The notes beneath the pieces were generated by a model that was not told the origin of the DNA, did no database searches, and saw only the letters and a list, made by a program, of their open reading frames with translations. DNA of 64,000 bases. Source: Candidatus Woesearchaeota archaeon (GTDB taxonomy: Archaea > Nanobdellota > Nanobdellia > Woesearchaeales > UBA12501). Shown piece by piece: positions 6,286 to 51,240 of the stretch; the stretch's first letter is position 1, and each line of letters opens with the position of its first letter. The position numbers and the translations under genes were made by a program. The DNA is taken from NCBI GenBank assembly GCA_030651375.1, contig JAUSFM010000014.1:89630-153629 (forward strand). Reading direction: 5' to 3'.

Positions 6286-6379
6286 TATTAATTCTTTTAG
6301 AGGTCTGTGGTTTGAGGTCTGAAGTACGTTAAAAAAATGCGCTGCGCAGAGAATTATTTTTTATCCATTGTTAGATATT

Positions 6380-29997: not shown

Positions 29998-30040
29998 TTG
30001 TAGGTAGGGCGAAGATGATTATAGGTAGGACGAAGAGCTT
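29998..30040. repeat. Direct repeat ATTGTAGGTAGGGCGAAGA / ATTATAGGTAGGACGAAGA upstream of the aminotransferase-like operon
   Basis: Two roughly 19-nt near-identical copies separated by 2 nt, about 70-110 nt upstream of the 28875..29930 start. Confidence 0.35.
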
Positions 30041-30276
30041 GGCCAACTTGGAAAGATACATGTTGGTTAACCAGCCTTACTAGTTGATCTGGGGGAGGGA
30101 GTATGAATCGTACCCCCCTCTAGTTCAAACTCAATAAATTCCCCAGTGTCGTCATTCTTTGTTCCCATAAGCAAAACCTGATTTTAAGAAGAAAAAAGCC
30201 TTTGATTTATAAACCTTTGTGGTTAGAAGATATTGAGGAGGATATTACACGTGGGCAATTAGCCCAACAAGTCAAA

Positions 30277-30350
30277 CGCCTCTGCTGGGATTTGAACCCA
30301 GGTCCCAAGCTCCGCAAGCTCGTATACTGTCCAAGCTATACTACAGAGGC
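30277..30350 (-). tRNA. tRNA-Arg (anticodon GCG)
   Basis: Reverse complement gives acceptor gcctctg/cagaggc, anticodon stem cgagc/gcttg with loop ttGCGga, T arm ctggg-ttcaaat-cccag, discriminator G. Confidence 0.8.
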
Positions 30351-30460
30351 ATGGCACTAAGAAGTATATGGCTTGTTTATAAGATTTATTGTTTTAGGGG
30401 CTCTTTTCTTTTGTTTTATAAATAAAAAAATTTATAAGTTATGTCATCGGGAATGACCAT

Positions 30461-30973
30461 ATGAGACAATTAAAGACTATATTTGACACTAATATCTACG
30501 GCGAACTTTTGTCAAAATCAGAGTATGTTGATTTGATTGAAAAAATAAGGTCTGATGGGGGTCTTGTTGTTTTTGGCTTTAGAGAAATAAGAAAAGAACT
30601 AAAAGATACTCCCAAAGATAAGGCCACACATGATGACTCCCAATTGCGAATTGCTTTGCTGGTGTTATACGATAAACTGGTAAAATCAGAAAGAGACTTG
30701 CTTGTCACGCCTGAAATAGAAAAGTTGGCGATTGATTACCACAAGGAATATCAAAAATTAGGAGGTATTACTTCTTTAAATATTCTAAAACGTGATTTTC
30801 TTATTGTTGCCTGTGCCTCAATTAAAAATATGGATATTGTGTATTCGGATGATAACAGCACCATGTTATCAAAATTATCAATCGAATCATATACTGCCAT
30901 CAATAGCCGTGAAAATCTCAGGTCACCTAATTTTCTTAATTTTAAAGATTTGAGAAAAAAATATAACTTTTAA
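30461..30973 (+). CDS. PIN-domain protein (VapC-like nuclease fold)
   Basis: 'IFDTNIYGELL' first-strand Asp motif, and C-terminal 'FLIVACASIKNMDIVYSDDNS' resembling the PIN acidic quartet. AT-rich codon usage. Confidence 0.45.
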   Translation: MRQLKTIFDTNIYGELLSKSEYVDLIEKIRSDGGLVVFGFREIRKELKDTPKDKATHDDSQLRIALLVLYDKLVKSERDLLVTPEIEKLAIDYHKEYQKLGGITSLNILKRDFLIVACASIKNMDIVYSDDNSTMLSKLSIESYTAINSRENLRSPNFLNFKDLRKKYNF

Positions 30974-31155
30974 CTTGTTTGTTTTACAAACCTACGTGCT
31001 GCCTTACAAAATTGAGGGTCTTCCTGCCATTTTCTAAGCAAAGCAAGGAACTCTTTAAAACTCTTTTTCTTTAGTTCAGTATAAGAAACATCTTTCTTGC
31101 CAGTCCCTTTTTTTCCCATCCGCGTCACCTTTCTAAGGTTGAGTGTTTTTTTCAT
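30970..31155 (-). CDS. Small basic protein in the AT-rich islet (unknown function)
   Basis: 61 aa, K-rich, convergent with the PIN gene. Confidence 0.2.
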   Translation of the reverse strand: MKKTLNLRKVTRMGKKGTGKKDVSYTELKKKSFKEFLALLRKWQEDPQFCKAARRFVKQTS

Positions 31156-31264
31156 TTTTAAAATTACCGTTTCTTTTATTAATACATCCTTTTATTGAGG
31201 ATAATGTGTTATAGTTTAGTACCAAAAAGTAGCATTAACATATATACCTTTCGGAAAACTCAGT

Positions 31265-31918
31265 TTATGCTTTTATGGCTATGGTGCTGGGTGCTTTTCG
31301 CCCAACCGATGGCCCGTCCTTGATGACAAAGCCGGCTTTTTTCATGTTCTGCCGAACCTCAGTTGCACAGCTGTAGGTCGTAAGCATAGCTCCTTTTTTC
31401 ATTACGCCCGCCACTGCCCTGAAAAATTCTTCAGTCCACAGCTCCGGGCATTTCTTGGGTGAGAACGGGTCAAAAAAAACAACGTCGAACGAGAGAGGAA
31501 CGAGGCGCGTGATTGTTTTTCGCGCGTCGCCGAGTATGATTTTGAGGCTGATATTTTTCTCGGTTATTGAAAATCCCTTTTTTTGTACGCAGGCCTGCAC
31601 CAGCGGATAGCGTGCGAACTTTGGTGTGAGTGTTGGAATTGTCTGAAGAATTTGCTCGTCGTTTTCAAGGCCGACAATTTCCATGGTGCCTTCGGCAACA
31701 TCGAGCGCAGCGGCGGTGTTGTATCCAAGGCCAAAACACACGTCGAGTACGCGCACGTTTTTTTCCAGCTTTTCCCGGCATACCTCGGCGTATTTTTTAA
31801 CGGCTTCTTCCTCGGCGCCGGACATGGAGTGGTAGGCCTCGCCGTACTGTGTGTTATAAAAGGTCACCGAGCCGTCCCCGGTAACTATTTTGTTCAGCTC
31901 CATTATGTTTTGGAACAC
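31265..31918 (-). CDS. MnmC-like SAM-dependent methyltransferase domain protein (DUF752 family)
   Basis: 'VLDVCFGLGYNT' and 'DVVFFDPFSPKKCPELWTEEFF' match the MnmC C-terminal methyltransferase signature (DxFxDgFsP...peLW). Confidence 0.55.
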   Translation of the reverse strand: MFQNIMELNKIVTGDGSVTFYNTQYGEAYHSMSGAEEEAVKKYAEVCREKLEKNVRVLDVCFGLGYNTAAALDVAEGTMEIVGLENDEQILQTIPTLTPKFARYPLVQACVQKKGFSITEKNISLKIILGDARKTITRLVPLSFDVVFFDPFSPKKCPELWTEEFFRAVAGVMKKGAMLTTYSCATEVRQNMKKAGFVIKDGPSVGRKAPSTIAIKA

Positions 31919-31954
31919 GAGAAACTATATAAAATGTGATGGTTTTGGCAGTGC

Positions 31955-33076
31955 ATGGCAAAAAAGAATGATTTTGTTATTCTTCCCACCGGTCCTAATG
32001 GATATATGGCTGAAGGTGTTGCATTATGTCTTGGAAAACAAGCATTACCTATTCAGAGTGCTGCGTTTAGCGATGGCCACATGATTCGCCGTATTGTTGA
32101 TACCGTGCGAAGAAAGCCAGTGTATCTTGTGCAGACATACATCGCTGGCCAACCTTATCAAATGCTTACCGAAGTCGGCCAGATGCTCAACGCTGCATTC
32201 CATGCCAGTGCTGCCCGAAGAACGGTGGTTATGCCAAAAGCAGTAGGTGACCGACAAGATCGAATTAACCAAGCAGGAGAGCCCATCGAAGTCCAGGAAG
32301 TTGCTGAAGAGCTTGAATCAAAAGGTATGGACAGCTTAATCGTGGTGCGGCCGCATTTTGCGCAATATTCATCAGTTGTTCGCCGGCCGACGCTGATGCT
32401 TTCCGGCTTGCCCTTGTTTGCGTACCATCTTCGTCAGCAAGTTGAAAATTATGATGAACTTTGTTTTGTTGCTGCAGATGGCGGCGCAGAAAAAGAAACC
32501 CGTCTCTTCATGGAGATTATGGGCTCAACACATTACGCAACCGTGATCCAAGGCCGCAAAGTTACTGATAAAACCGCTGATTCAAAAATACTGGCAGGTG
32601 TTTCAGGCGTTGAGCATATTCAAGGAAGGCATTGCGTGTTTATTGAAGATATCGTCGAAAGCGGCACGACCGCATCAAATGCTGCACAAGCGGTTATGGA
32701 TGCTGGAGCAAAAAGTGCAGTACTCTATGCGCCCCATCTTGGCTTGAGTGGCAAGGCACCAGAGTATCTCAATGGTTCACCTCTTTCTGCGGTTATTGGT
32801 CTCGACACGGTGTACCACCCGCCAGAATTTCTCGCACAGTTTGAAAAGGTTAAAATCATCAGCTGTGTTCCCATGCTTGCCGACGTCATCAAGCGCGACC
32901 GCTTCGGTGAATCAACGCGGCTGTTTGCCTGCCTTGACCGTGTGACACTCGCTACAGAGCCGGAGAAGATGTTCGAACTTGTTGAACGAGTGTATCGTGA
33001 AGCCCGAAAATTAACGTACGATAGCGGCAACCAAAATCATCGGTTGCTCCAAGACCGCGTCGCCAACCTTTTTTAA
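31955..33076 (+). CDS. prs: Ribose-phosphate pyrophosphokinase (PRPP synthetase) family
   Basis: N-terminal 'FSDGHMIRRIVDTVRRKPVYLVQTY' (FSDGE...VRG.DVfiiQS pattern) and PRPP-binding loop 'VFIEDIVESGTTA'. 373 aa, longer than typical Prs. Confidence 0.55.
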   Translation: MAKKNDFVILPTGPNGYMAEGVALCLGKQALPIQSAAFSDGHMIRRIVDTVRRKPVYLVQTYIAGQPYQMLTEVGQMLNAAFHASAARRTVVMPKAVGDRQDRINQAGEPIEVQEVAEELESKGMDSLIVVRPHFAQYSSVVRRPTLMLSGLPLFAYHLRQQVENYDELCFVAADGGAEKETRLFMEIMGSTHYATVIQGRKVTDKTADSKILAGVSGVEHIQGRHCVFIEDIVESGTTASNAAQAVMDAGAKSAVLYAPHLGLSGKAPEYLNGSPLSAVIGLDTVYHPPEFLAQFEKVKIISCVPMLADVIKRDRFGESTRLFACLDRVTLATEPEKMFELVERVYREARKLTYDSGNQNHRLLQDRVANLF

Positions 33077-35339: not shown

Positions 35340-36074
35340 TCAGAAAAATACTCCTGTACGATGCATTGGACGGCCAGGATGCTCAAACTGTTCCGCAAAA
35401 CAAAATTGCCAACAATCCCAGTCGATCATGGTTCGAAAATCTTTTCCCTGTATTGGGCCAATGTGTGCTGAGGGGTTAAATTCGTGTATAACCGCCGCAA
35501 CCTGTTCCCAGAAACGGGTGAGAACTTCTTCTGTTTCAAGGACATAGTCAATAGTTTTTGTTCCGGCATCAGGAAAGTTTCCGTCATAGTTGGCGACAAG
35601 CACGGGCTTATTTGTTTTGTCACCAAGAATCGTGCCTTCATATTCTCGGCAATCATCAAAAAAATGGTCTCGGCCGCGATACTCTGCTTTGACTCCTTTC
35701 AGCGCATCCCGAAACCGATCGCGCTCTGCTGCCATTTCCGGGGAAACTGAAAAATACAGATGGAGCATGGTGCGGTGGGGATACCACACCTTTTTCAGTG
35801 TACGCTCATCAAGTGTGTCGGCGACAACATAGGTAGCATGCTGCCGCAATGCAACTACATGCCCCGAACAGGTGTGGTATGTGTCCTCAACAAACGGCAA
35901 TCCCCACAATGCAGGCACAATCTCCCGAATGGGCTCTTCAAGAAGCGGCTTAAACTGTTGGTAAATCTGTATTCGATCGGCATCCATTGGTTCACTGGTT
36001 TTTCCGTTCGCGTAGCGCCGTTTCGCCGTAGGCGAAACGGCTTCCGTCGTCCACAACAGTTTTTTGCGAAGCAA
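35340..36074 (-). CDS. Hypothetical protein
   Basis: 244 aa ORF with no recognizable motif. Start may be the internal Met at 35987. Confidence 0.35.
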   Translation of the reverse strand: MLRKKLLWTTEAVSPTAKRRYANGKTSEPMDADRIQIYQQFKPLLEEPIREIVPALWGLPFVEDTYHTCSGHVVALRQHATYVVADTLDERTLKKVWYPHRTMLHLYFSVSPEMAAERDRFRDALKGVKAEYRGRDHFFDDCREYEGTILGDKTNKPVLVANYDGNFPDAGTKTIDYVLETEEVLTRFWEQVAAVIHEFNPSAHIGPIQGKDFRTMIDWDCWQFCFAEQFEHPGRPMHRTGVFF

Positions 36075-36085
36075 AAAAATGTTGA

Positions 36086-36158
36086 TGGGGTTGGGAAGAT
36101 TTGAACTCCCGTCGCACCCACCCCAAGGGTGAATCCTACCAGGCTAGACTACAACCCC
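36086..36158 (-). tRNA. tRNA-Pro (anticodon GGG)
   Basis: Reverse complement gives acceptor ggggttg/caacccc, anticodon stem caccc/gggtg with loop ttGGGgt, T arm gggag-ttcaaat-cttcc, discriminator A. Confidence 0.8.
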
Positions 36159-36233
36159 GATGAGATGGACAAAACTGGCAGGGGATATTTAAATGTTTGT
36201 GGATAACCAGCTTTGGCGTAAAAGGGCGAGAAT

Positions 36234-38096
36234 TTAGTTAGATAGGTGGAGATTATGAGAGCAGTGAAAAGTTCTCGGTAGATGGTTTTGAATTGTTTTC
36301 TGGCACCATATCAAGTCGGTCAAGATAGAAAACTGCTTGCCGATCGTCAACATATATCCACGAATTGTGTATTTTTTTATGAGCTGTTTTATCTTCCTCT
36401 CAGTATCTGCTGTTTTATTTGCTTCACAATACACCTTTTTTGTATCGACTCCAGTTTTTTGGACGAGTAGATTTCCACACATATTGGTAAAATCAGTTCG
36501 GTGAAGGACAACAAATCGCACGGTCTTTCTGAATTTCTCAAAGTCCCAATCAAGAATGTCATCTGTTTCGTGAAGGGTAGTGTTATCAACGCGCGAAACA
36601 AGGCCGCCTATGATTTTATGTTCGTGATGCATCTGTGCGTACATATTTCGTGCGCTCACTCCGTTGGTGTTCTGAAGTCCAACAGCGAGCGGCAAGTCAA
36701 GAACGGCACCGCCTTTTATCTCAAAAAGGGCATCCTCATAATAACTTAGTTCTTCATCAGCTTGCGGCGTGGCGTGAGACATAGGTATTGGTATTGCGGT
36801 AAGGTCAATGAAGATTATCCCGACGAGAAGAACCGCTACAAGAATGTTTCCGTTTCCCTTTAAAAACCGCAAACCTTTGCTTTTTTCGAGCACCATTTTT
36901 ATTCCGTACCCTGCAAGTACGATGGTTCCAAGGGATACCATAAATGTGAATCGGGTGAATCGAAGACTATCCATGAACGGCAGCTGCCTGAGGAGATTGG
37001 CAGGCATCGCGATATCTTGAAGAAACTCGTTTCCATAAAACCGAATTCCTTTTTCTCCAATACTCAACACAAAAAAAATAATCGCAAAGAGTATCCAGAA
37101 CCATTTTTTATTGTCTTTGGAAAACAACATTCCCGCGGCAGCAAGAATGAGTACGGATATGCCAAGGTATTCATATCCTCCACCCCCTTTGAACACGGTG
37201 CTCGTTGCAGGTCGAAGCAAATAGTTGGCAACATCAGTTTTATCATTCTCCGTTCCTACAGCGGTGTGAATACCCTTTTTTTCGATCATACGAAACGAGT
37301 GCGGCGAGGACAACACTATGAACAGGGCACCGATGAGGACCAGCTTCCACCATACTTTTTTTAAGCTTGGTTGGTGGCTGGTTGGATTTTTTGCTGAGGT
37401 TGTTTGGTTCTTTCTTTTTTCGACAAGGTAGTCTGCAAAAAAATATGCCAAAAATAGTCCAGTAAACAGAATCATAAACAAGGCATATACGGGCTCTAAA
37501 TAGAATATGACACCAAGAACAAGAGCGGCTATGGCACTGTTTTTTACCGTTGGATTATCACGGGTCTTGAACAAGAACAAAATATACAAAGGGATGAATT
37601 GTATTGATGCAAAGTTAAGATGATTCAGTATGCGAAACATATGCCACGGACTGAACGCGTATAGAATACCCATGATAATCGCGGCTTGTTTATTATTGAG
37701 AAGATAATCACCGAGAAGATACATGCAATACCCCGCAAGAGGGAAGGTAAGAAGAACAAGAATGTTATACGCAGCGATGTATCCAACAACTTTGGCGAGA
37801 AGCATGCCGATGAATGAGTTTAAAATACTGAGTGTATGAAACGTGAGATCGACACCGTGGGGGTAAAAAAGATAGTCGGTGTAAAAAAAAGGCAGTCCGT
37901 CGTGCAGTGATTTTTCCATCCACCACATATTCCACATAAAAACAAGACTATCTTTTGGATCGTGACTCATCGGCTTATCAAGATTAAACACAAGTGGGTA
38001 GGTAAAAAAGATAGTCAGCAGAGAAAATACTGCAAAAAGTATAACGAACTTTTTCAGGTTGGGATGGTGAGAATCAGACGTCGATGGTTCACCCAT
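36234..38096 (-). CDS. Polytopic (about 12-13 TM) membrane protein with C-terminal soluble domain, candidate GT-C-type glycosyltransferase
   Basis: 620 aa. N-terminal 420 aa are hydrophobic helices with a conserved loop 'PLVFNLDKPMSHDPKDSLVFMWNMWWM'. Paralogous to 38836..40551. Embedded in a glycosylation gene cluster. Confidence 0.45.
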   Translation of the reverse strand: MGEPSTSDSHHPNLKKFVILFAVFSLLTIFFTYPLVFNLDKPMSHDPKDSLVFMWNMWWMEKSLHDGLPFFYTDYLFYPHGVDLTFHTLSILNSFIGMLLAKVVGYIAAYNILVLLTFPLAGYCMYLLGDYLLNNKQAAIIMGILYAFSPWHMFRILNHLNFASIQFIPLYILFLFKTRDNPTVKNSAIAALVLGVIFYLEPVYALFMILFTGLFLAYFFADYLVEKRKNQTTSAKNPTSHQPSLKKVWWKLVLIGALFIVLSSPHSFRMIEKKGIHTAVGTENDKTDVANYLLRPATSTVFKGGGGYEYLGISVLILAAAGMLFSKDNKKWFWILFAIIFFVLSIGEKGIRFYGNEFLQDIAMPANLLRQLPFMDSLRFTRFTFMVSLGTIVLAGYGIKMVLEKSKGLRFLKGNGNILVAVLLVGIIFIDLTAIPIPMSHATPQADEELSYYEDALFEIKGGAVLDLPLAVGLQNTNGVSARNMYAQMHHEHKIIGGLVSRVDNTTLHETDDILDWDFEKFRKTVRFVVLHRTDFTNMCGNLLVQKTGVDTKKVYCEANKTADTERKIKQLIKKYTIRGYMLTIGKQFSILTDLIWCQKTIQNHLPRTFHCSHNLHLSN

Positions 38097-42441: not shown

Positions 42442-43176
42442 TTACGCTTTGCACGCGCCCTCGCTGCAGCTGTGCTCGCACCGCACCTTCTCATAATTAA
42501 TAAACTTTACTCCGGGCCGGTTGGTGTCATATGTCGGATCACAGAACCATTCGATGAGCATCTTGTCGTTAAAACAGAAATCCTCTTCGACCTTTTTTTT
42601 GCCGACAAGGCTGATGGTGCGCCCTTTTTTGAATTCTGTATACTTCTCTTTCTCGTCGCTATCCTCACAATAGAAAACACACGTGCCATCCTTGCACCCT
42701 TTGCCATTGTACTGGATACAGTTCCTGTTCGCTACGCAGCTCACACCCACACAACTACTCCCTTTGCAGGTAGTGCCTGCTTCGCAGTATTTGTCAAGTA
42801 CCCATTTGGTGGTGCACTCACTATTTTTTGAGTCTCTTAATTCCTTCAGTACTTTGTCATAGCCAATTCCTAGTCCGACGATCGGGTCATTGTCGCACCG
42901 CTTTTTGCCGGTTTCTTTCAATTCGCAGTTTTGCGGCAGCTTTTTCGGTGGAAGCACTGGTTCTTGCTTCTGCGCAGTGGCGCAGAGCCAGTATTTTTCC
43001 TTTGCCAGTGTGCACTCGTCTGAAGTGTCTGAACTACACATCCGTTTCAGTTTAGTCCCCTCATTTGCGCACGGATTCCAGACTACAGTGCCTGTCGGCA
43101 ACTCACCGTTGGCGAGCAGAAAGAACCAAACTGCGCTGAGGATGAGAAGGATGGTAAGGATTGTTTCGCGTCGCAT
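42442..43176 (-). CDS. Cysteine-rich secreted or surface protein (at least 25 Cys)
   Basis: N-terminal signal/TM 'ILTILLILSAVWFFLLA', then a 210 aa domain with regularly spaced Cys (CxxxC, CC pairs), suggesting a disulfide- or metal-rich extracellular module. Confidence 0.45.
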   Translation of the reverse strand: MRRETILTILLILSAVWFFLLANGELPTGTVVWNPCANEGTKLKRMCSSDTSDECTLAKEKYWLCATAQKQEPVLPPKKLPQNCELKETGKKRCDNDPIVGLGIGYDKVLKELRDSKNSECTTKWVLDKYCEAGTTCKGSSCVGVSCVANRNCIQYNGKGCKDGTCVFYCEDSDEKEKYTEFKKGRTISLVGKKKVEEDFCFNDKMLIEWFCDPTYDTNRPGVKFINYEKVRCEHSCSEGACKA

Positions 43177-43256
43177 ACGAGGCCTCTTTTTCTTGTTTTA
43201 TAGCACCGAGAATATATAAAGTTTTAGAACAAATCTGTGTGGCTGAGGGGAACAAC

Positions 43257-43649
43257 CTTTTTTTGCTTCGCAAAAAAAGCTTGCGCAGCAACGAACGTGT
43301 TTTCTCCTCCGGAGAAAACGGCGCTTCAAGCAACTATTTGGTACGATTTACGAAGTACAAATAGGGGGCTGATGGGATTTGGAACCTGCGCAATCTTTTT
43401 GCGCTGCGGCACAAAAAGCTTGAACACGCTGGTGCCGCCTACGCTCCGCTCGGCGGCACGGCACTAGTTACAACGTCGATGTACGACCCTACGACCTACG
43501 AAGTACCAAAAGAAACATGGGGCTGATGGGATGTAAACCAACATTTTTTTGCTGCGGCAAAAAACTGTTGCGAACGACGAACGAGTTTCCGCCTCCGGCG
43601 AAAACAGCGCTTCGCGCAACTATTTGGTACGATTTACGAAGTACAAATA
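43257..43649. repeat. Three tandem degenerate repeat units (about 130-155 nt), each containing hairpins and ending in a copy of the 3'-terminal 14-18 nt of tRNA-Ile
   Basis: Units at about 43257-43386, 43387-43542 and 43543-43672. Each has a tttttgcNNNNgcaaaaa hairpin, a GC-rich palindrome (ctcctccggag / ccgcctccggcg) and the terminal ggggctgatgggat(ttg). The last unit overlaps the intact tRNA. Confidence 0.6.
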
Positions 43650-43725
43650 TGGGGCTGATGGGATTTGAACCCACGACCTCTCGATTATCAGTCGAGTGCT
43701 ACTAGCCAGGCTAAGCTACAGCCCC
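43650..43725 (-). tRNA. tRNA-Ile (anticodon GAT)
   Basis: Reverse complement GGGGCTGTAGCTTAGCCTGGCTAGTAGCACTCGACTGATAATCGAGAGGTCGTGGGTTCAAATCCCATCAGCCCCA. Anticodon stem ctcga/tcgag with loop ctGATaa. Collinear with canonical archaeal tRNA-Ile. Confidence 0.8.
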
Positions 43726-43821
43726 GTACGCCGGAAGAGGAGTGAGCGGCTTTATAAAATTAACGTGTTAGGGGTTTTTTTGCCGTAAACTATTTAAAAA
43801 CAACCTTATATAAATAGTCCC

Positions 43822-49146: not shown

Positions 49147-51240
49147 TCATCGCCGTGCCCCTACTTCTTTTCCTTCAGGTGTATATTTCTTGACATCGAT
49201 AACGCTCTCAACATTGCGGATGAGCGTGGTGAGCTGGTCAATGCCCACTGCTGGAGGAACATCCAGTTTGAACGTGATAACAACATTGTCTTTTTTGCTG
49301 CGTGTGTTCACCGCAAGCACATTAATGCCCTGGCGCGCAATGAGATTCAGAACCTGTGCCAGCAAGCCAACACGGTCATGGACCACGACTTTCAGTTTCT
49401 GAATGTTTTCAGTGTCGTCTTCTTTCCATGCTGCAACAAGCGCCTGGCTCTGGTTCAGCGTTGCGCTGTTCGGGCAGGCCTTTGCGTGAATCGTTATCTT
49501 TTTTTCTTTGGTCAAAAACGCGAGAATCGGCGTCTTGAATAGTGGTGCGCAACATTTTGAAAATTTAATCTGCGCCGGCTTCGGCTTCATGCCACTGATG
49601 ATTATTTTTTCTTTGAGCCGCACGCTAATGGGCGAGGCATCATCGTCTGCGCCCGAGACATCGGTCTTGATGTTAAGGATTGTTTTTATCTTACTGCGCG
49701 CCTTGCTACTTTTCACAAACGAAAGCCATGCCCGCGCTGGATGCGCATTGCGCTGGAGGGTGATATTAACGACATCGCCGCTTTTCAGCAGCGTGTCAAG
49801 CGCCACATTGAAGCCATTGACCTCGGCCCTGGTGCAGTGATTGCCAACGTTGGTATGGACGGCGTAGGCAAAATCAACCGGCGTTGATGCCTCCGGAAGA
49901 GAAATCGGGTCGCCTTTCGGCGTAAAGACGACAATTTCATTTTCAAACAAGTCAATGCGCAGGGTTTCGACAAACTCTTGCGCAGTTTTTGATTCCTGCT
50001 TCCATTCGAGCAGCTGCTTCAGCCAGCTCAGCTTCCGGTCAAACCGCTTGTCGCGTTCGCTGCCTTTGTACCGCCAGTGCGCAGCAATGCCCTCCTCGGC
50101 GAGGTTGTGCATTTCTTTTGTTCGTATCTGAATTTCAATAATTTTTCCGTGCGGGCTCACCACCGAGGTGTGCAGTGACTGGTAGCCGTTTGCCTTGGGC
50201 ACTGAAAGATAATCTTTGAACCTGCCGGGAATCGGCTTCCAAAGCTCATGCACTATGCCAAGCGCTGCGTAACATTCAGGAACCGTGCTCACGACGATAC
50301 GAATGGCGATAAGGTCGTAAATTTCTGAGAAATCTTTTTGTTTTTTCTTCATCTTTTGGTAGATGCTGTAAAAATATTTTGCCCGGCCAACAACATCCGC
50401 GGCAATCTGCGCTGCTTCTAATTTTTTGTGGATATGGGAAATAAGTTCCTTGGTATTTTTTTCGCGCTCTGCTCTTTTTTCTGAAATGCGCGCGCGTATT
50501 TTGTGGTACGATTCAGGCTCAACAACTTTGAACGCGAGGTCTTCAAGTTCGCCTTTCATCGAGCGCATGCCAAGCTTGTGCGCAATCGGCGCATAGATGT
50601 TCATTGTTTCTTGGGCAATGCGCTGTATTTTTTCGGGCCGGAATCCGCTCGTGCCGAGCGTGCGCATGTTATGGAGCCGATCAGCCAACTTGATGAGAAT
50701 AACGCGCACATCCTTTGCCGTGGCGAGGAGGATTTTCCGGATGTTTTCAGCAGTGTATTGCTCTTTTGACTCAAAGCGTATCTGAATTTTGGTCACGCCA
50801 TCAACCAGCGAGGATATTTCCTCACCGAATTCCTTTTTCAGCTGCTCGATGGTGACGCCGCAGTCTTCGACACAGTCGTGCAGCAGGGCGGCGCATAAGC
50901 TTGCTGAATCCGCCTTGAACGCCATGAGAATCGATGCTGTTTCAAGCGGGTGGATAAAATAGAATTCTCCTGAACTTCGCGTCTGGCCATGGTGCGCGTT
51001 GTGCGCAAAAATAAATGCTTTTTTCAGCTTGGAAAGGTCGGCATGGTGGTTATACTCCAAGACCTTTTTGAGAAATGTCTCGCAGCTTTCATGCGTGTGC
51101 GTGCCTTGGTCAAACGCGCGGATTTCTTCAAGCAGGTGTTCGGGGATAGAGGGAGTAGAGTGTGCCATGGCGGTGCCATTTTTTCCATTGCGCTTTAAAA
51201 GCGTTGTTAGGGAGGTTATCACGTCAGCCATAAGCATCAA
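49147..51240 (-). CDS. Long RelA/SpoT-homolog (p)ppGpp synthetase/hydrolase (HD, synthetase, TGS and ACT domains)
   Basis: HD motif 'HPLETASILMAFKADSASLCAALLHDCVEDC', synthetase 'DLIAIRIVV...GYQSLHTSV', TGS 'VVFTPKGDPISLPEASTPVDFAYAVHTNVG', and a C-terminal ACT-like region. 697 aa. Confidence 0.75.
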   Translation of the reverse strand: MMLMADVITSLTTLLKRNGKNGTAMAHSTPSIPEHLLEEIRAFDQGTHTHESCETFLKKVLEYNHHADLSKLKKAFIFAHNAHHGQTRSSGEFYFIHPLETASILMAFKADSASLCAALLHDCVEDCGVTIEQLKKEFGEEISSLVDGVTKIQIRFESKEQYTAENIRKILLATAKDVRVILIKLADRLHNMRTLGTSGFRPEKIQRIAQETMNIYAPIAHKLGMRSMKGELEDLAFKVVEPESYHKIRARISEKRAEREKNTKELISHIHKKLEAAQIAADVVGRAKYFYSIYQKMKKKQKDFSEIYDLIAIRIVVSTVPECYAALGIVHELWKPIPGRFKDYLSVPKANGYQSLHTSVVSPHGKIIEIQIRTKEMHNLAEEGIAAHWRYKGSERDKRFDRKLSWLKQLLEWKQESKTAQEFVETLRIDLFENEIVVFTPKGDPISLPEASTPVDFAYAVHTNVGNHCTRAEVNGFNVALDTLLKSGDVVNITLQRNAHPARAWLSFVKSSKARSKIKTILNIKTDVSGADDDASPISVRLKEKIIISGMKPKPAQIKFSKCCAPLFKTPILAFLTKEKKITIHAKACPNSATLNQSQALVAAWKEDDTENIQKLKVVVHDRVGLLAQVLNLIARQGINVLAVNTRSKKDNVVITFKLDVPPAVGIDQLTTLIRNVESVIDVKKYTPEGKEVGARR

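What the first reader, a model, noticed from the sequence alone, without database searches (positions are those of the whole stretch)
43257..43725. tRNA-Ile followed by three degenerate tandem units, each ending in the tRNA 3' terminus
Downstream of tRNA-Ile(GAT) on the minus strand there are three successive units of 130-155 nt. Each contains an A/T-clamped hairpin (tttttgcNNNNgcaaaaa), a GC-rich palindrome (ctcctccggag-like) and a terminal copy of ggggctgatgggat(ttg), which is the reverse complement of the tRNA 3' end. Repeated partial tRNA 3' ends are the classic footprint of tyrosine-integrase att sites, so the array may record serial integration and excision at this tRNA. The adjacent genes (a Cys-rich secreted protein at 42442-43176 and a small wHTH-like ORF) could be cargo remnants, although no integrase lies within about 2 kb. 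Alternatively the units could be a structured small RNA family co-opting the tRNA terminator region.
Basis: seen in the sequence. Interest (0 to 1): 0.6.

Follow-up and report, generated by a model that had tools for sequence, protein, structure and literature searches.

The report
Variable repeat array behind archaeal tRNA-Ile
Downstream of the tRNA-Ile gene of a groundwater Woesearchaeote lies a strain-variable tandem array of short non-coding hairpin units, each carrying a copy of the tRNA's last 14-27 bases; it is an archaeal counterpart of the E. coli tyrT repeats and not the scar of an integrated virus or plasmid.

Summary
tRNA-Ile(GAT) (43650-43725, minus) is followed by three units of 132, 154 and 127 nt. 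Each unit has a conserved GC hairpin, an A/T-clamped palindrome and a copy of the tRNA's T-loop-to-3'-end.

Sister lineages have an empty site, where the tRNA abuts the next gene's promoter. Others carry one or two related units. Seven contigs of the same population (99.1-99.6% identical flanks) show at least three array alleles: A-B-C, D-A-B' and D-A'. Their breakpoints lie both at the tRNA-end copies and inside the hairpins.

I found no integrase in the 64 kb window, and the units match nothing in viral, plasmid or phage collections. The neighbouring genes are syntenic in every lineage, so they are not cargo.

The units are built from sequences that also follow tRNA-Pro and tRNA-Asn as 3' trailers. 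Their right end is 85-98% conserved across lineages, and the GC hairpin covaries.

The best reading is a recombination-driven tandem array of tRNA trailer/terminator modules. It is analogous but not homologous to the E. coli tyrT/rtT 178-bp repeats. A cassette array served by a recombinase acting in trans is not excluded.

The parts
43650..43725 (-). tRNA-Ile(GAT), 76 nt, no encoded CCA. Its last 22 nt (ggttcaaatcccatcagcccca, 43650-43671) are the sequence repeated in the array.
   Evidence: ARAGORN; Rfam tRNA, 67.2 bits.
43751..43760 (-). Archaeal TATA-like box (attttataaa) about 30 nt upstream of the tRNA. It is conserved in all related loci.
   Evidence: Read from the sequence. Inferred promoter, not tested.
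43518..43649 (-). Unit A: class I 5' hairpin (43621-43649), GC hairpin (43585-43606), A/T-clamped palindrome (43539-43570) and alpha-type tRNA-end copy ggtttacatcccatcagcccca (43518-43539).
43364..43517 (-). Unit B: diverged class I 5' part containing a 7-nt micro-repeat, GC hairpin of different sequence (43432-43459), A/T-clamped palindrome (43391-43422) and beta-type tRNA-end copy gcaggttccaaatcccatcagccccc (43364-43389).
43237..43363 (-). Unit C: class I 5' hairpin (43335-43363), GC hairpin (43298-43319), A/T-clamped palindrome (43253-43283) and degenerate terminal tRNA-end copy ggttgttcccctcagccacac (43237-43257).
   Evidence: The junction with the ancestral flank was identified by comparison with L003 and L004.
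43177..43236 (-). Ancestral tRNA 3' flank, which is the promoter region of the Cys-rich gene (agatttgttctaaaactttatatatt...). In empty-site lineages it directly follows the tRNA.
36007..36084 (-). Paralogous hairpin-pair module (A/T-clamped palindrome, gacgacg linker, GC hairpin) starting 1 nt after tRNA-Pro. Its orientation relative to the tRNA is opposite to that in the Ile units. It has no tRNA-end copy.
   Evidence: The same module is present in L004 and deleted in L003.
6289..6345 (+). 3' trailer of tRNA-Asn. It is a paralogue of the class II 5' part that forms unit D in sister strains.
   Evidence: local alignment z=6.4, 33 of 41 identical.

Best explanation
This is a tandem array anchored on a tRNA 3' flank, of the kind known from the E. 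coli tyrT operon.

Structure of the repeat. The repeating unit is [last 14-27 nt of tRNA-Ile, from the T-arm/T-loop to the discriminator] + [a variable 5' trailer part] + [a GC hairpin] + [an A/T-clamped palindrome with T5-7/A5-7 runs].

How it changes (shown by the allele comparison). Copy number and composition change through unequal recombination or replication slippage between short direct repeats. Two kinds of repeat are used: the tRNA-end copies (an 18-nt exact repeat bounds unit D) and the palindromic modules (these give hybrid units).

What it is made of (shown). The building blocks are the same sequence modules that form the 3' trailers of other tRNA genes in this lineage (tRNA-Pro, tRNA-Asn).

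What it does (inferred). The palindromes place an oligo-T run on both strands. They most likely act as termination/insulation and trailer elements for the strongly transcribed tRNA gene, which otherwise sits about 20 nt from the next gene's TATA box.

Why the tRNA-end copy is there (inferred). It is part of the repeat unit. It stays identical to the resident tRNA either through recurrent recombination with the selected tRNA 3' end or through a function of its own.

How the first unit arrived is not shown.
For: 1. Empty site. L003, L004 and L007 have the tRNA directly followed by the flank that follows the terminal degenerate copy in the window.
2. n units with n+1 tRNA-end copies. This matches E. 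coli tyrV, where the 19-nt tRNA-Tyr 3' end (also T-loop to 3' end) occurs exactly six times, three of them at 178-nt spacing downstream including a terminal copy.
3. Alleles within one population. With flanks 99.1-99.6% identical, the arrays are A-B-C (window), D-A-B' (L098) and D-A' (L100). Four further contigs (L010, L101, L102, L103) show D as the first unit. D is bounded by the tRNA end and its own copy. The other two deletions have breakpoints inside A/T palindromes.
4. Copy-number difference in another lineage: one unit in L012/L013, at least two identical units in L014.
5. In L005 the copy matches that genome's own variant tRNA 3' end (ctcac rather than cccat), and the unit's 5' part resembles the native trailer that follows the copy.
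6. The hairpin module occurs in the window only in the Ile units and 3' of tRNA-Pro. The class II 5' part is a paralogue of the tRNA-Asn trailer.
7. Constraint. The unit right parts are 86-90% identical between lineages whose adjacent CDS third positions are 43-53% identical. Within the same units, the right end is 85-98% identical and the 5' part 51-58%. The GC hairpin is 98.4% paired with compensatory changes in 3 of 9 pairs.
8. No integrase among about 55 window ORFs.
9. No match in IMG/VR, PLSDB or phage records.
Against: - The origin of the first unit is unexplained. The unit sequence has no counterpart at the empty site, so at least one true insertion with duplication of the tRNA end must have occurred.
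- Junction variants are shared by lineages with under 50% protein identity. These are alpha (gattg|gttYacatc) and beta (gattgcgYa|ggttcYcaaatc), each with its own characteristic T-loop mutation. Independent duplications of the resident tRNA end cannot produce this pattern. It needs either an old array under selection or an element-borne att-like site.
- The 14-nt core is perfect in nine of the ten tRNA-end copies catalogued, while every T-loop is mutated. Simple neutral decay does not predict that.
- The termination/insulation function is pure inference. The palindromes are not bacterial-type terminators. Oligo-T runs alone are abundant in the window, so it is not obvious why hairpins would be needed.
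- An 18-nt repeat is short for RadA-dependent recombination.
Confidence: 0.55

Rival explanations
1. Miniature non-autonomous integrative cassettes. Each unit would be a roughly 110-160-bp element whose conserved right end (palindrome + junction + T-loop-variant tRNA end) is an attP-like site. A recombinase encoded elsewhere in the genome, or on a mobile element, would insert units at the tRNA-Ile T-loop/3'-end att site or at any earlier copy. That would build a cassette array.
For: - Direct repeats run from the T-arm/T-loop to the tRNA 3' end, the classic T-loop-class att block. Mycobacteriophage Ms6 is an example: its attP core recombines with an attB in the tRNA-Ala T-loop at the gene's 3' end (PMC1762012 abstract).
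- Empty sites exist in sister lineages.
- n units come with n+1 copies.
- Element-type junction variants alpha and beta are shared across distant lineages, and across both orientations of the tRNA.
- The 14-nt core is perfect and the right end is 85-98% conserved.
- The tRNA-proximal unit D is present or absent among strains.
- The tRNA locus itself is inverted in one clade. This recalls integrase-driven inversions between tRNA fragments in Thermococcales (PMC5495485 abstract).
Against: - No integrase in 64 kb.
- No copy of the unit or its right end in IMG/VR, plasmids or phages.
- Two of three allele differences have breakpoints in the palindromes, not at the att-like core.
- The 5' parts of 'the same' unit are only 51-58% identical while the right ends are 85-98%. 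That fits old vertical inheritance better than recent spread.
- The most widely shared unit type (class II/beta) is the tRNA-proximal one in all four lineages that have it. A newest-at-the-att-site model then needs independent insertions.
- A circle of 130-160 bp is very small for a recombination substrate.
Confidence: 0.2
2. Trailer-derived structured small RNAs. The units would be co-transcribed with tRNA-Ile, released by RNase Z cleavage after the discriminator, and act as stable RNAs, like RttR from the E. coli tyrT repeats. The tRNA-end copy would be part of the RNA. This rival is compatible with the best explanation as a statement about function.
For: - Each unit starts exactly at the nucleotide after the discriminator, which is the RNase Z site.
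- Units fold below shuffled controls (z -1.1 to -2.9 for Ile units, -4.9 for the tRNA-Pro module).
- The GC hairpin covaries.
Against: - Class II and III units begin with T5-7 immediately after the tRNA. That should terminate archaeal RNA polymerase before the unit is transcribed.
- No TATA-like box is visible inside the units, so distal units lack an evident promoter.
- No Rfam family matches, RtT included.
- The hairpins are perfect palindromes. They would be equally conserved as DNA sites or as terminators.
- The same module works in either orientation relative to its tRNA.
- No expression data are available.
Confidence: 0.15
3. Decayed scars of successive large integrated elements (virus or plasmid), with the neighbouring Cys-rich protein and small ORF as left-over cargo.
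For: Repeated tRNA 3' ends downstream of a tRNA are the usual footprint of integrase att sites (general knowledge).
Against: - The units are homologous to each other and to tRNA-Pro and tRNA-Asn trailers.
- They are conserved far above neutral.
- They carry no ORF remnants.
- The neighbouring genes keep the same order in all lineages, empty-site ones included.
- No compositional island is visible at 42-44 kb.
Confidence: 0.04
4. Assembly artefact: a repeat wrongly expanded or chimerically joined in a metagenome-assembled genome.
For: Short-read (Logan) contigs of the same run break inside the array, at 43281 and 43620.
Against: - Those independent contigs confirm both ends: tRNA joined to unit A, and unit C's palindrome joined to the flank.
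- The A-copy-B junction is reproduced in L098 from another sample.
- The longest exact repeat between units is about 34 nt, which normal k-mer sizes resolve.
- Related arrays occur in five other lineages from different projects.
- The B-copy-C junction is seen only in the window.
Confidence: 0.03

Closest known systems
E. coli tyrT-tyrV operon 178-bp repeats (rtT/RttR sRNA, tpr)
   Same: - Tandem units lie directly 3' of a tRNA gene.
- Each unit begins with a copy of the tRNA's 3' end, starting in the T-loop (19 nt in E. coli).
- A terminal extra copy gives n units with n+1 copies.
- The array lies between the tRNA and the end of the transcription unit.

I verified these features on NC_000913.3: six exact copies of the 19-mer, with spacing 178, 178, 178.
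   Different: - There is no sequence or Rfam homology.
- The E. coli units are 95% identical to each other, whereas these are mosaic at 69-83%.
- These units carry two conserved palindromic hairpins and mutated T-loops.
- They are shared, with the same junction variants, by lineages whose neighbouring protein is 45-61% identical.
- They differ between strains of one population.
- No ORF equivalent to tpr was found, and no evidence for an RttR-like RNA.
tRNA-targeting integrative elements with a T-loop-class att site (e.g. mycobacteriophage Ms6 at tRNA-Ala; archaeal integrated elements)
   Same: - The direct repeat spans the T-loop to the tRNA 3' end and bounds inserted DNA.
- Relatives have an empty site.
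- The tRNA gene stays intact (PMC1762012).
   Different: - No integrase, no cargo and no element-sized insert.
- The inserts are 110-160-nt non-coding units built from tRNA-trailer modules.
- Allele breakpoints also lie outside the att-like core.
Integron cassette arrays (attI plus attC palindromes)
   Same: - A serial array of short units, each ending in an imperfect palindrome next to a conserved core.
- Composition varies between strains.
   Different: - No IntI-type integrase is adjacent.
- The units carry no ORFs.
- The anchor is a tRNA 3' end, not attI.
- The resemblance is one of form only. No defining feature was met.
REP/BIME-type or MITE-type extragenic palindromic repeats
   Same: Short non-coding palindromic modules, found in more than one place and in both orientations, sometimes in tandem.
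   Different: - In 64 kb they occur only at two tRNA 3' flanks.
- They have no terminal inverted repeats and no short target-site duplication.

Membership tests
Integrase-mediated integrative element at a tRNA gene | Inserted DNA flanked by direct repeats of the tRNA 3' part (attL/attR) | tested here: met
   Two perfect 14-nt cores (similarity spanning 22-27 nt) plus one degenerate terminal copy.
Integrase-mediated integrative element at a tRNA gene | Tyrosine or serine recombinase gene inside or next to the insert | tested here: not met
   The units are non-coding. No Phage_integrase or recombinase hit among about 55 ORFs across the 64 kb window. The rest of the genome was not available.
Integrase-mediated integrative element at a tRNA gene | Empty site in related genomes | tested here: met
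   L003, L004 and L007 have the tRNA followed at once by the flank.
Integrase-mediated integrative element at a tRNA gene | Cargo genes absent from empty-site relatives | tested here: not met
   The Cys-rich gene, the ~100-aa ORF and TIM keep the same order in all lineages.
Integrase-mediated integrative element at a tRNA gene | Rearrangement breakpoints confined to the att core | tested here: not met
   The D presence/absence difference is at the core, but the L098 and L100 deletions have breakpoints inside the A/T palindromes.
tyrT/rtT-type tRNA 3'-flank tandem repeats | Tandem homologous units directly 3' of the tRNA, each starting with the tRNA 3' end (T-loop to end), plus a terminal partial copy | tested here: met
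   The E. coli reference was checked.
tyrT/rtT-type tRNA 3'-flank tandem repeats | Sequence/structure homology to RtT RNA (Rfam) | tested here: not met
   No Rfam hit to the units at E<=10. This is an analogue, not a homologue.
tyrT/rtT-type tRNA 3'-flank tandem repeats | Co-transcription with the tRNA and release of a stable RNA | not testable with these tools
   No expression data. T5-7 runs at the start of class II/III units argue against read-through.
Integron cassette array | IntI integrase with attI next to the array; ORF-bearing cassettes ending in attC | tested here: not met
   No integrase. The units have no conserved ORF, and the alleles differ by whole-unit indels.
REP/MITE-type dispersed palindromic repeats | Many dispersed intergenic copies | tested here: not met
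   nhmmer profiles of the module and of the right end hit only the Ile array and the tRNA-Pro flank in 64 kb.

The most novel reading that the evidence does not exclude
The conserved 56-60-nt right end of each unit (A/T-clamped palindrome + fixed junction + T-loop-mutated copy of the tRNA-Ile T-arm and acceptor strand) is a recombination site. On this reading the array is a tRNA-anchored cassette system of a DPANN archaeon: tiny non-coding cassettes are inserted, excised and perhaps inverted by a recombinase acting in trans. It would resemble an integron in form, with a tRNA 3' end in the role of attI.
Probability: 0.15. Interest if true: 0.7.

Novelty: new variant of a known kind. Interest (0 to 1): 0.4.

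Why it matters
The only worked example I know of tandem repeats that each carry a tRNA's 3' end is the E. coli tyrT/rtT locus. From memory, its origin has never been settled. Here a non-homologous archaeal counterpart comes with comparative material that E. coli does not offer in this form:

- empty sites in sister lineages;
- single-unit and multi-unit lineages;
- both orientations of the tRNA;
- at least three alleles within one groundwater population.

The locus could therefore show how such arrays arise and turn over. It could also show whether the tRNA-end copy is a by-product of recombination or a functional site.

The result has a practical side as well. Repeated tRNA 3' ends are not by themselves evidence of integrated mobile elements. 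Such arrays also break short-read assemblies of DPANN genomes.

Tried and rejected
- Scans for the tRNA 3' end in IMG/VR returned only an unrelated phage tRNA-Ile (L008) and chance 15-mer matches. None carried the hairpin module. Scans for the alpha and beta right ends found nothing.
- blastn of the array against plasmids and phages gave no match.
- A genome-contig scan for the tRNA found nothing. A scan with the Cys-rich protein alignment found only a distant Methanosarcinales hit, which I did not use. The clade appears to be absent from the GTDB representatives.
- tRNA-like fold of the units: Rfam at E<=10 finds no tRNA or other family in the units.
- Pairing between the G/U-rich class II trailer and the tRNA 3' strand, or an inverted copy of the tRNA end: duplex energies beat shuffles only for L012 (p~0.01) and L010 (p~0.04), not for L096, L005, A, B or the Asn trailer. 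I dropped this as inconsistent.
- The bacterial-type promoter and terminator scan found nothing. It does not cover archaeal signals.
- Duplicated 3' ends at other tRNAs: none at Asn, Arg or Pro in the window or the related loci.
- Small ORFs overlapping the array: I did not pursue these. The alleles differ by whole-unit deletions, so no reading frame is conserved.

Full report
**Organism and setting**

The window comes from an archaeon. It encodes Hel308, an ATP-dependent DNA ligase, archaeal TruD, LonB and an archaea-specific SMC-related protein. A public source names the Cys-rich protein next to the finding as 'MAG: hypothetical protein Q7R76_04780 [Candidatus Woesearchaeota archaeon]'. Promoters here look archaeal, with TATA-like boxes about 25-30 nt upstream of the genes.

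**The observation**

tRNA-Ile(GAT) lies at 43650-43725 on the minus strand (ARAGORN; Rfam 67 bits). It encodes no CCA. The 14-mer GGGGCTGATGGGAT, the reverse complement of the tRNA's 3' end, occurs exactly three times in the window: at 43365, 43519 and in the tRNA itself at 43651.

Read in the tRNA's direction, the gene is followed by three units:
- A: 43649->43518, 132 nt
- B: 43517->43364, 154 nt
- C: 43363->43237, 127 nt

. Each unit contains, in order:
- a 5' part, which in A and C is a small hairpin tatttgtac...gtaccaaata;
- a GC-rich hairpin clamped by T and A runs;
- an A/T-clamped palindrome (T5-7-GC-loop-GC-A5-7);
- a copy of the tRNA 3' end.

. A and C are 82-83% identical, and B is about 69% identical to either.

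First, similarity to the tRNA extends over 22-27 nt, from the T-stem/T-loop to the discriminator, and every copy has a mutated T-loop. Second, unit C ends in a fourth, degenerate copy (ggttgttcccctcagccacac, 43237-43257). The array therefore has n units and n+1 tRNA ends.

**Comparative evidence across lineages**

I fetched syntenic loci through orthologues of the Cys-rich protein (8 proteins in the whole database) and of the 114-aa protein upstream of the tRNA. The gene order Ldh-like / ~330 aa / ~115 aa / tRNA-Ile / Cys-rich / ~100 aa / TIM is kept in all of them. The neighbours are therefore resident genes, not cargo.

| Locus | Cys-rich protein identity | State of the tRNA-Ile 3' flank |
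|---|---|---|
| L003 | 81% | Empty: tRNA followed at once by tagatttgttctaaaactttataaa, the Cys-rich gene's promoter |
| L004 | 60% | Empty, same flank |
| L007 | 46% | Empty |
| L096 | 60% | One unit |
| L095 | 60% | At least one unit |
| L005 | 45% | One unit |
| L012/L013 | 47% | One unit |
| L014 | same lineage as L012 | At least two identical units |
| L104 | not measured | One unit |

In the window, that empty-site flank follows the degenerate copy. The array is therefore about 415 nt of extra DNA bounded by tRNA-end copies.

In L005 the tRNA has a different T-stem (gtgag/ctcac), and the downstream copy matches that variant. The 5' part of L005's unit also resembles the native trailer that follows the copy.

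In L007, L012-L015 and L104/L105 the tRNA, together with its promoter and any unit present, is inverted relative to the flanking genes.

**Alleles within one population**

Seven contigs from other samples share 99.1-99.6% identical flanks with the window. Six of them (all but L010) were recovered through an exact match to the 114-aa protein, and L099 duplicates L002. Their arrays differ:

| Contig(s) | Array |
|---|---|
| window | tRNA-A-B-C |
| L098 | tRNA-D-A-B' |
| L100 | tRNA-D-A' |
| L102 | tRNA-D-A... (contig ends) |
| L010, L101, L103 | tRNA-D... (contig ends) |

D is a 160-nt unit with a different ('class II') 5' part. Its right end is almost identical to that of B. D is bounded by the tRNA end and its own copy, which form an 18-nt exact repeat.

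B' and A' are hybrid units. The A/T palindrome of B (in B') or of A (in A') is fused to the terminal palindrome of C, deleting 140 and about 286 nt respectively.

Recombination therefore occurs at the tRNA-end copies and also between the palindromic modules. That is the behaviour of a tandem repeat under unequal recombination or slippage. It is not the behaviour of a strictly site-specific system.

Independent Logan contigs from the window's own sequencing run confirm both ends of the array: tRNA joined to A, and C's palindrome joined to the flank. They break inside the array, as expected for a repeat.

**What the units are made of**

- An nhmmer profile of the hairpin pair hits only four places in the 64 kb window: the three Ile units and the sequence starting 1 nt after tRNA-Pro (36007-36084). 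At tRNA-Pro the module has the opposite orientation relative to its tRNA and no tRNA-end copy.
- L004 has the same module after tRNA-Pro. L003 has lost both palindromes there.
- The class II 5' part (unit D and the units of L096, L012 and L104) is a paralogue of the tRNA-Asn trailer in the window (z=6.4).
- A/T-clamped palindromes are otherwise rare in the window, whereas plain T6+ runs are common.

The units are thus mosaics of tRNA 3'-trailer modules.

**Constraint on the units**

- Between lineages, the unit right parts are 86-90% identical, while third codon positions of the adjacent gene are 43-53% identical.
- Within class II/beta units, the 56-60-nt right end (palindrome, junction, tRNA-end copy) is 85-98% identical. 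The 5' part of the same units is 51-58% identical.
- The GC hairpin keeps 98.4% of its cells paired, with compensatory changes at 3 of 9 pairs. Its covariation score beats 499 of 500 shuffles. B and L005 have hairpins of unrelated sequence at the same position.
- Two junction types recur in distant lineages: alpha (gattg|gttYacatc...) and beta (gattgcgYa|ggttcYcaaatc...).

These are not decaying scars. The uneven conservation along a unit argues for old inheritance with selection on the right end, and against recent spread of whole units.

**Tests of the integrase reading**

- None of about 55 ORFs in the window hits a recombinase family.
- The tRNA end, the junction between copy and palindrome, and the alpha and beta right ends match nothing relevant in IMG/VR.
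- The array has no match in PLSDB or phage records.
- Rfam finds nothing in the units.

**Closest known system**

I checked the E. coli K-12 tyrT-tyrV locus directly. The 19-nt 3' end of tRNA-Tyr, which also starts in the T-loop, occurs exactly six times:
- twice in the two tRNA genes themselves;
- once in the spacer between them;
- three times at 178-nt intervals downstream of tyrV, the last as a terminal partial repeat.

The units are annotated with the sRNA rttR and the ORF tpr. The literature states that rttR is encoded by one repeat unit of the tyrT operon (PMC3318445).

The archaeal array has the same architecture but no homology. It differs in its palindromic modules, its mosaic composition, its conservation across lineages and its turnover between strains.

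**Mechanism**

Shown:
- The array is extra DNA between the tRNA end and its ancestral flank.
- It gains or loses units through recombination at short direct repeats of two kinds.
- Its modules are shared with other tRNA trailers.
- Its hairpins and right end are under constraint.

Inferred:
- The palindromes, which put an oligo-T run on either strand, serve termination/insulation and trailer formation. The tRNA gene otherwise sits about 20 nt from the next TATA box.
- The tRNA-end copy persists through recombination with the selected tRNA end, or because it has a function of its own.

Not explained:
- How the first unit arrived.
- Why all copies carry T-loop mutations while the 14-nt core stays perfect. 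One possibility is that longer identity with the tRNA would destabilise the array. Another is that the core is a recombinase crossover site.

**Verdict**

The integrase-scar interpretation is only partly supported. The best reading is a tyrT-like, recombination-driven tandem array of tRNA trailer/terminator modules (confidence 0.55). A cassette system served by a recombinase in trans remains possible (confidence 0.2 as a rival; 0.15 in the fuller integron-like form given under the novel case).

Noticed in passing
L007 2466-2605; L012 250-590; L104/L105 (corresponds to window ~43237-43775): In one clade of relatives the tRNA-Ile gene is inverted relative to the flanking 114-aa and Cys-rich genes. 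The inverted segment includes the tRNA's promoter and, where present, its unit and tRNA-end copy. The boundaries carry short inverted T-rich motifs (gtttgaagaac / cttcttctaaaac).
   Followed up: partly
window 36007-36084 (-); L004 5699-5778; L003 9971-10000: The hairpin-pair module starts 1 nt after tRNA-Pro in the window and in L004. In L003 both palindromes are neatly deleted, leaving a T7 run and the linker. This is a second example of palindrome loss.
   Followed up: partly
window 6289-6345 (+): The tRNA-Asn 3' trailer (ttttagaggtctgtggtttgaggtctgaagtacg...) is a paralogue of the class II 5' part of unit D found in sister strains. tRNA trailers in this lineage therefore form sequence families.
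   Followed up: partly
window 49147-51240 (-): A long RelA/SpoT-type protein (HD, RelA_SpoT, TGS and ACT domains in the precomputed annotation of the identical Logan contig). It is conserved next to LonB in the relative L003. From memory, such long RSH proteins are unusual in archaea.
   Followed up: no
window 43281 and 43620; L001 end at window ~36085: Short-read (Logan, k=31) contigs of the same sequencing run end exactly at the repeated modules of the tRNA-Ile array and at the tRNA-Pro palindrome. These modules fragment short-read assemblies of this genome.
   Followed up: yes
window 42442-43176 (-): The Cys-rich secreted protein has 19 invariant cysteines across its family. Only 8 clusters exist among 5.8 billion database proteins, and it has no Pfam domain. 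It is a lineage-specific resident gene.
   Followed up: partly
window 43482-43501: A 7-nt micro-repeat (cgtaggt/cgtaggg, 2.6 copies) lies inside the 5' part of unit B. It accounts for part of B's extra length.
   Followed up: no
window 30001-32000 and 36001-38000: G+C drops to 0.40 and 0.43 next to tRNA-Arg and tRNA-Pro, against about 0.48-0.50 elsewhere. The ORFs there have mostly no family hits.
   Followed up: no
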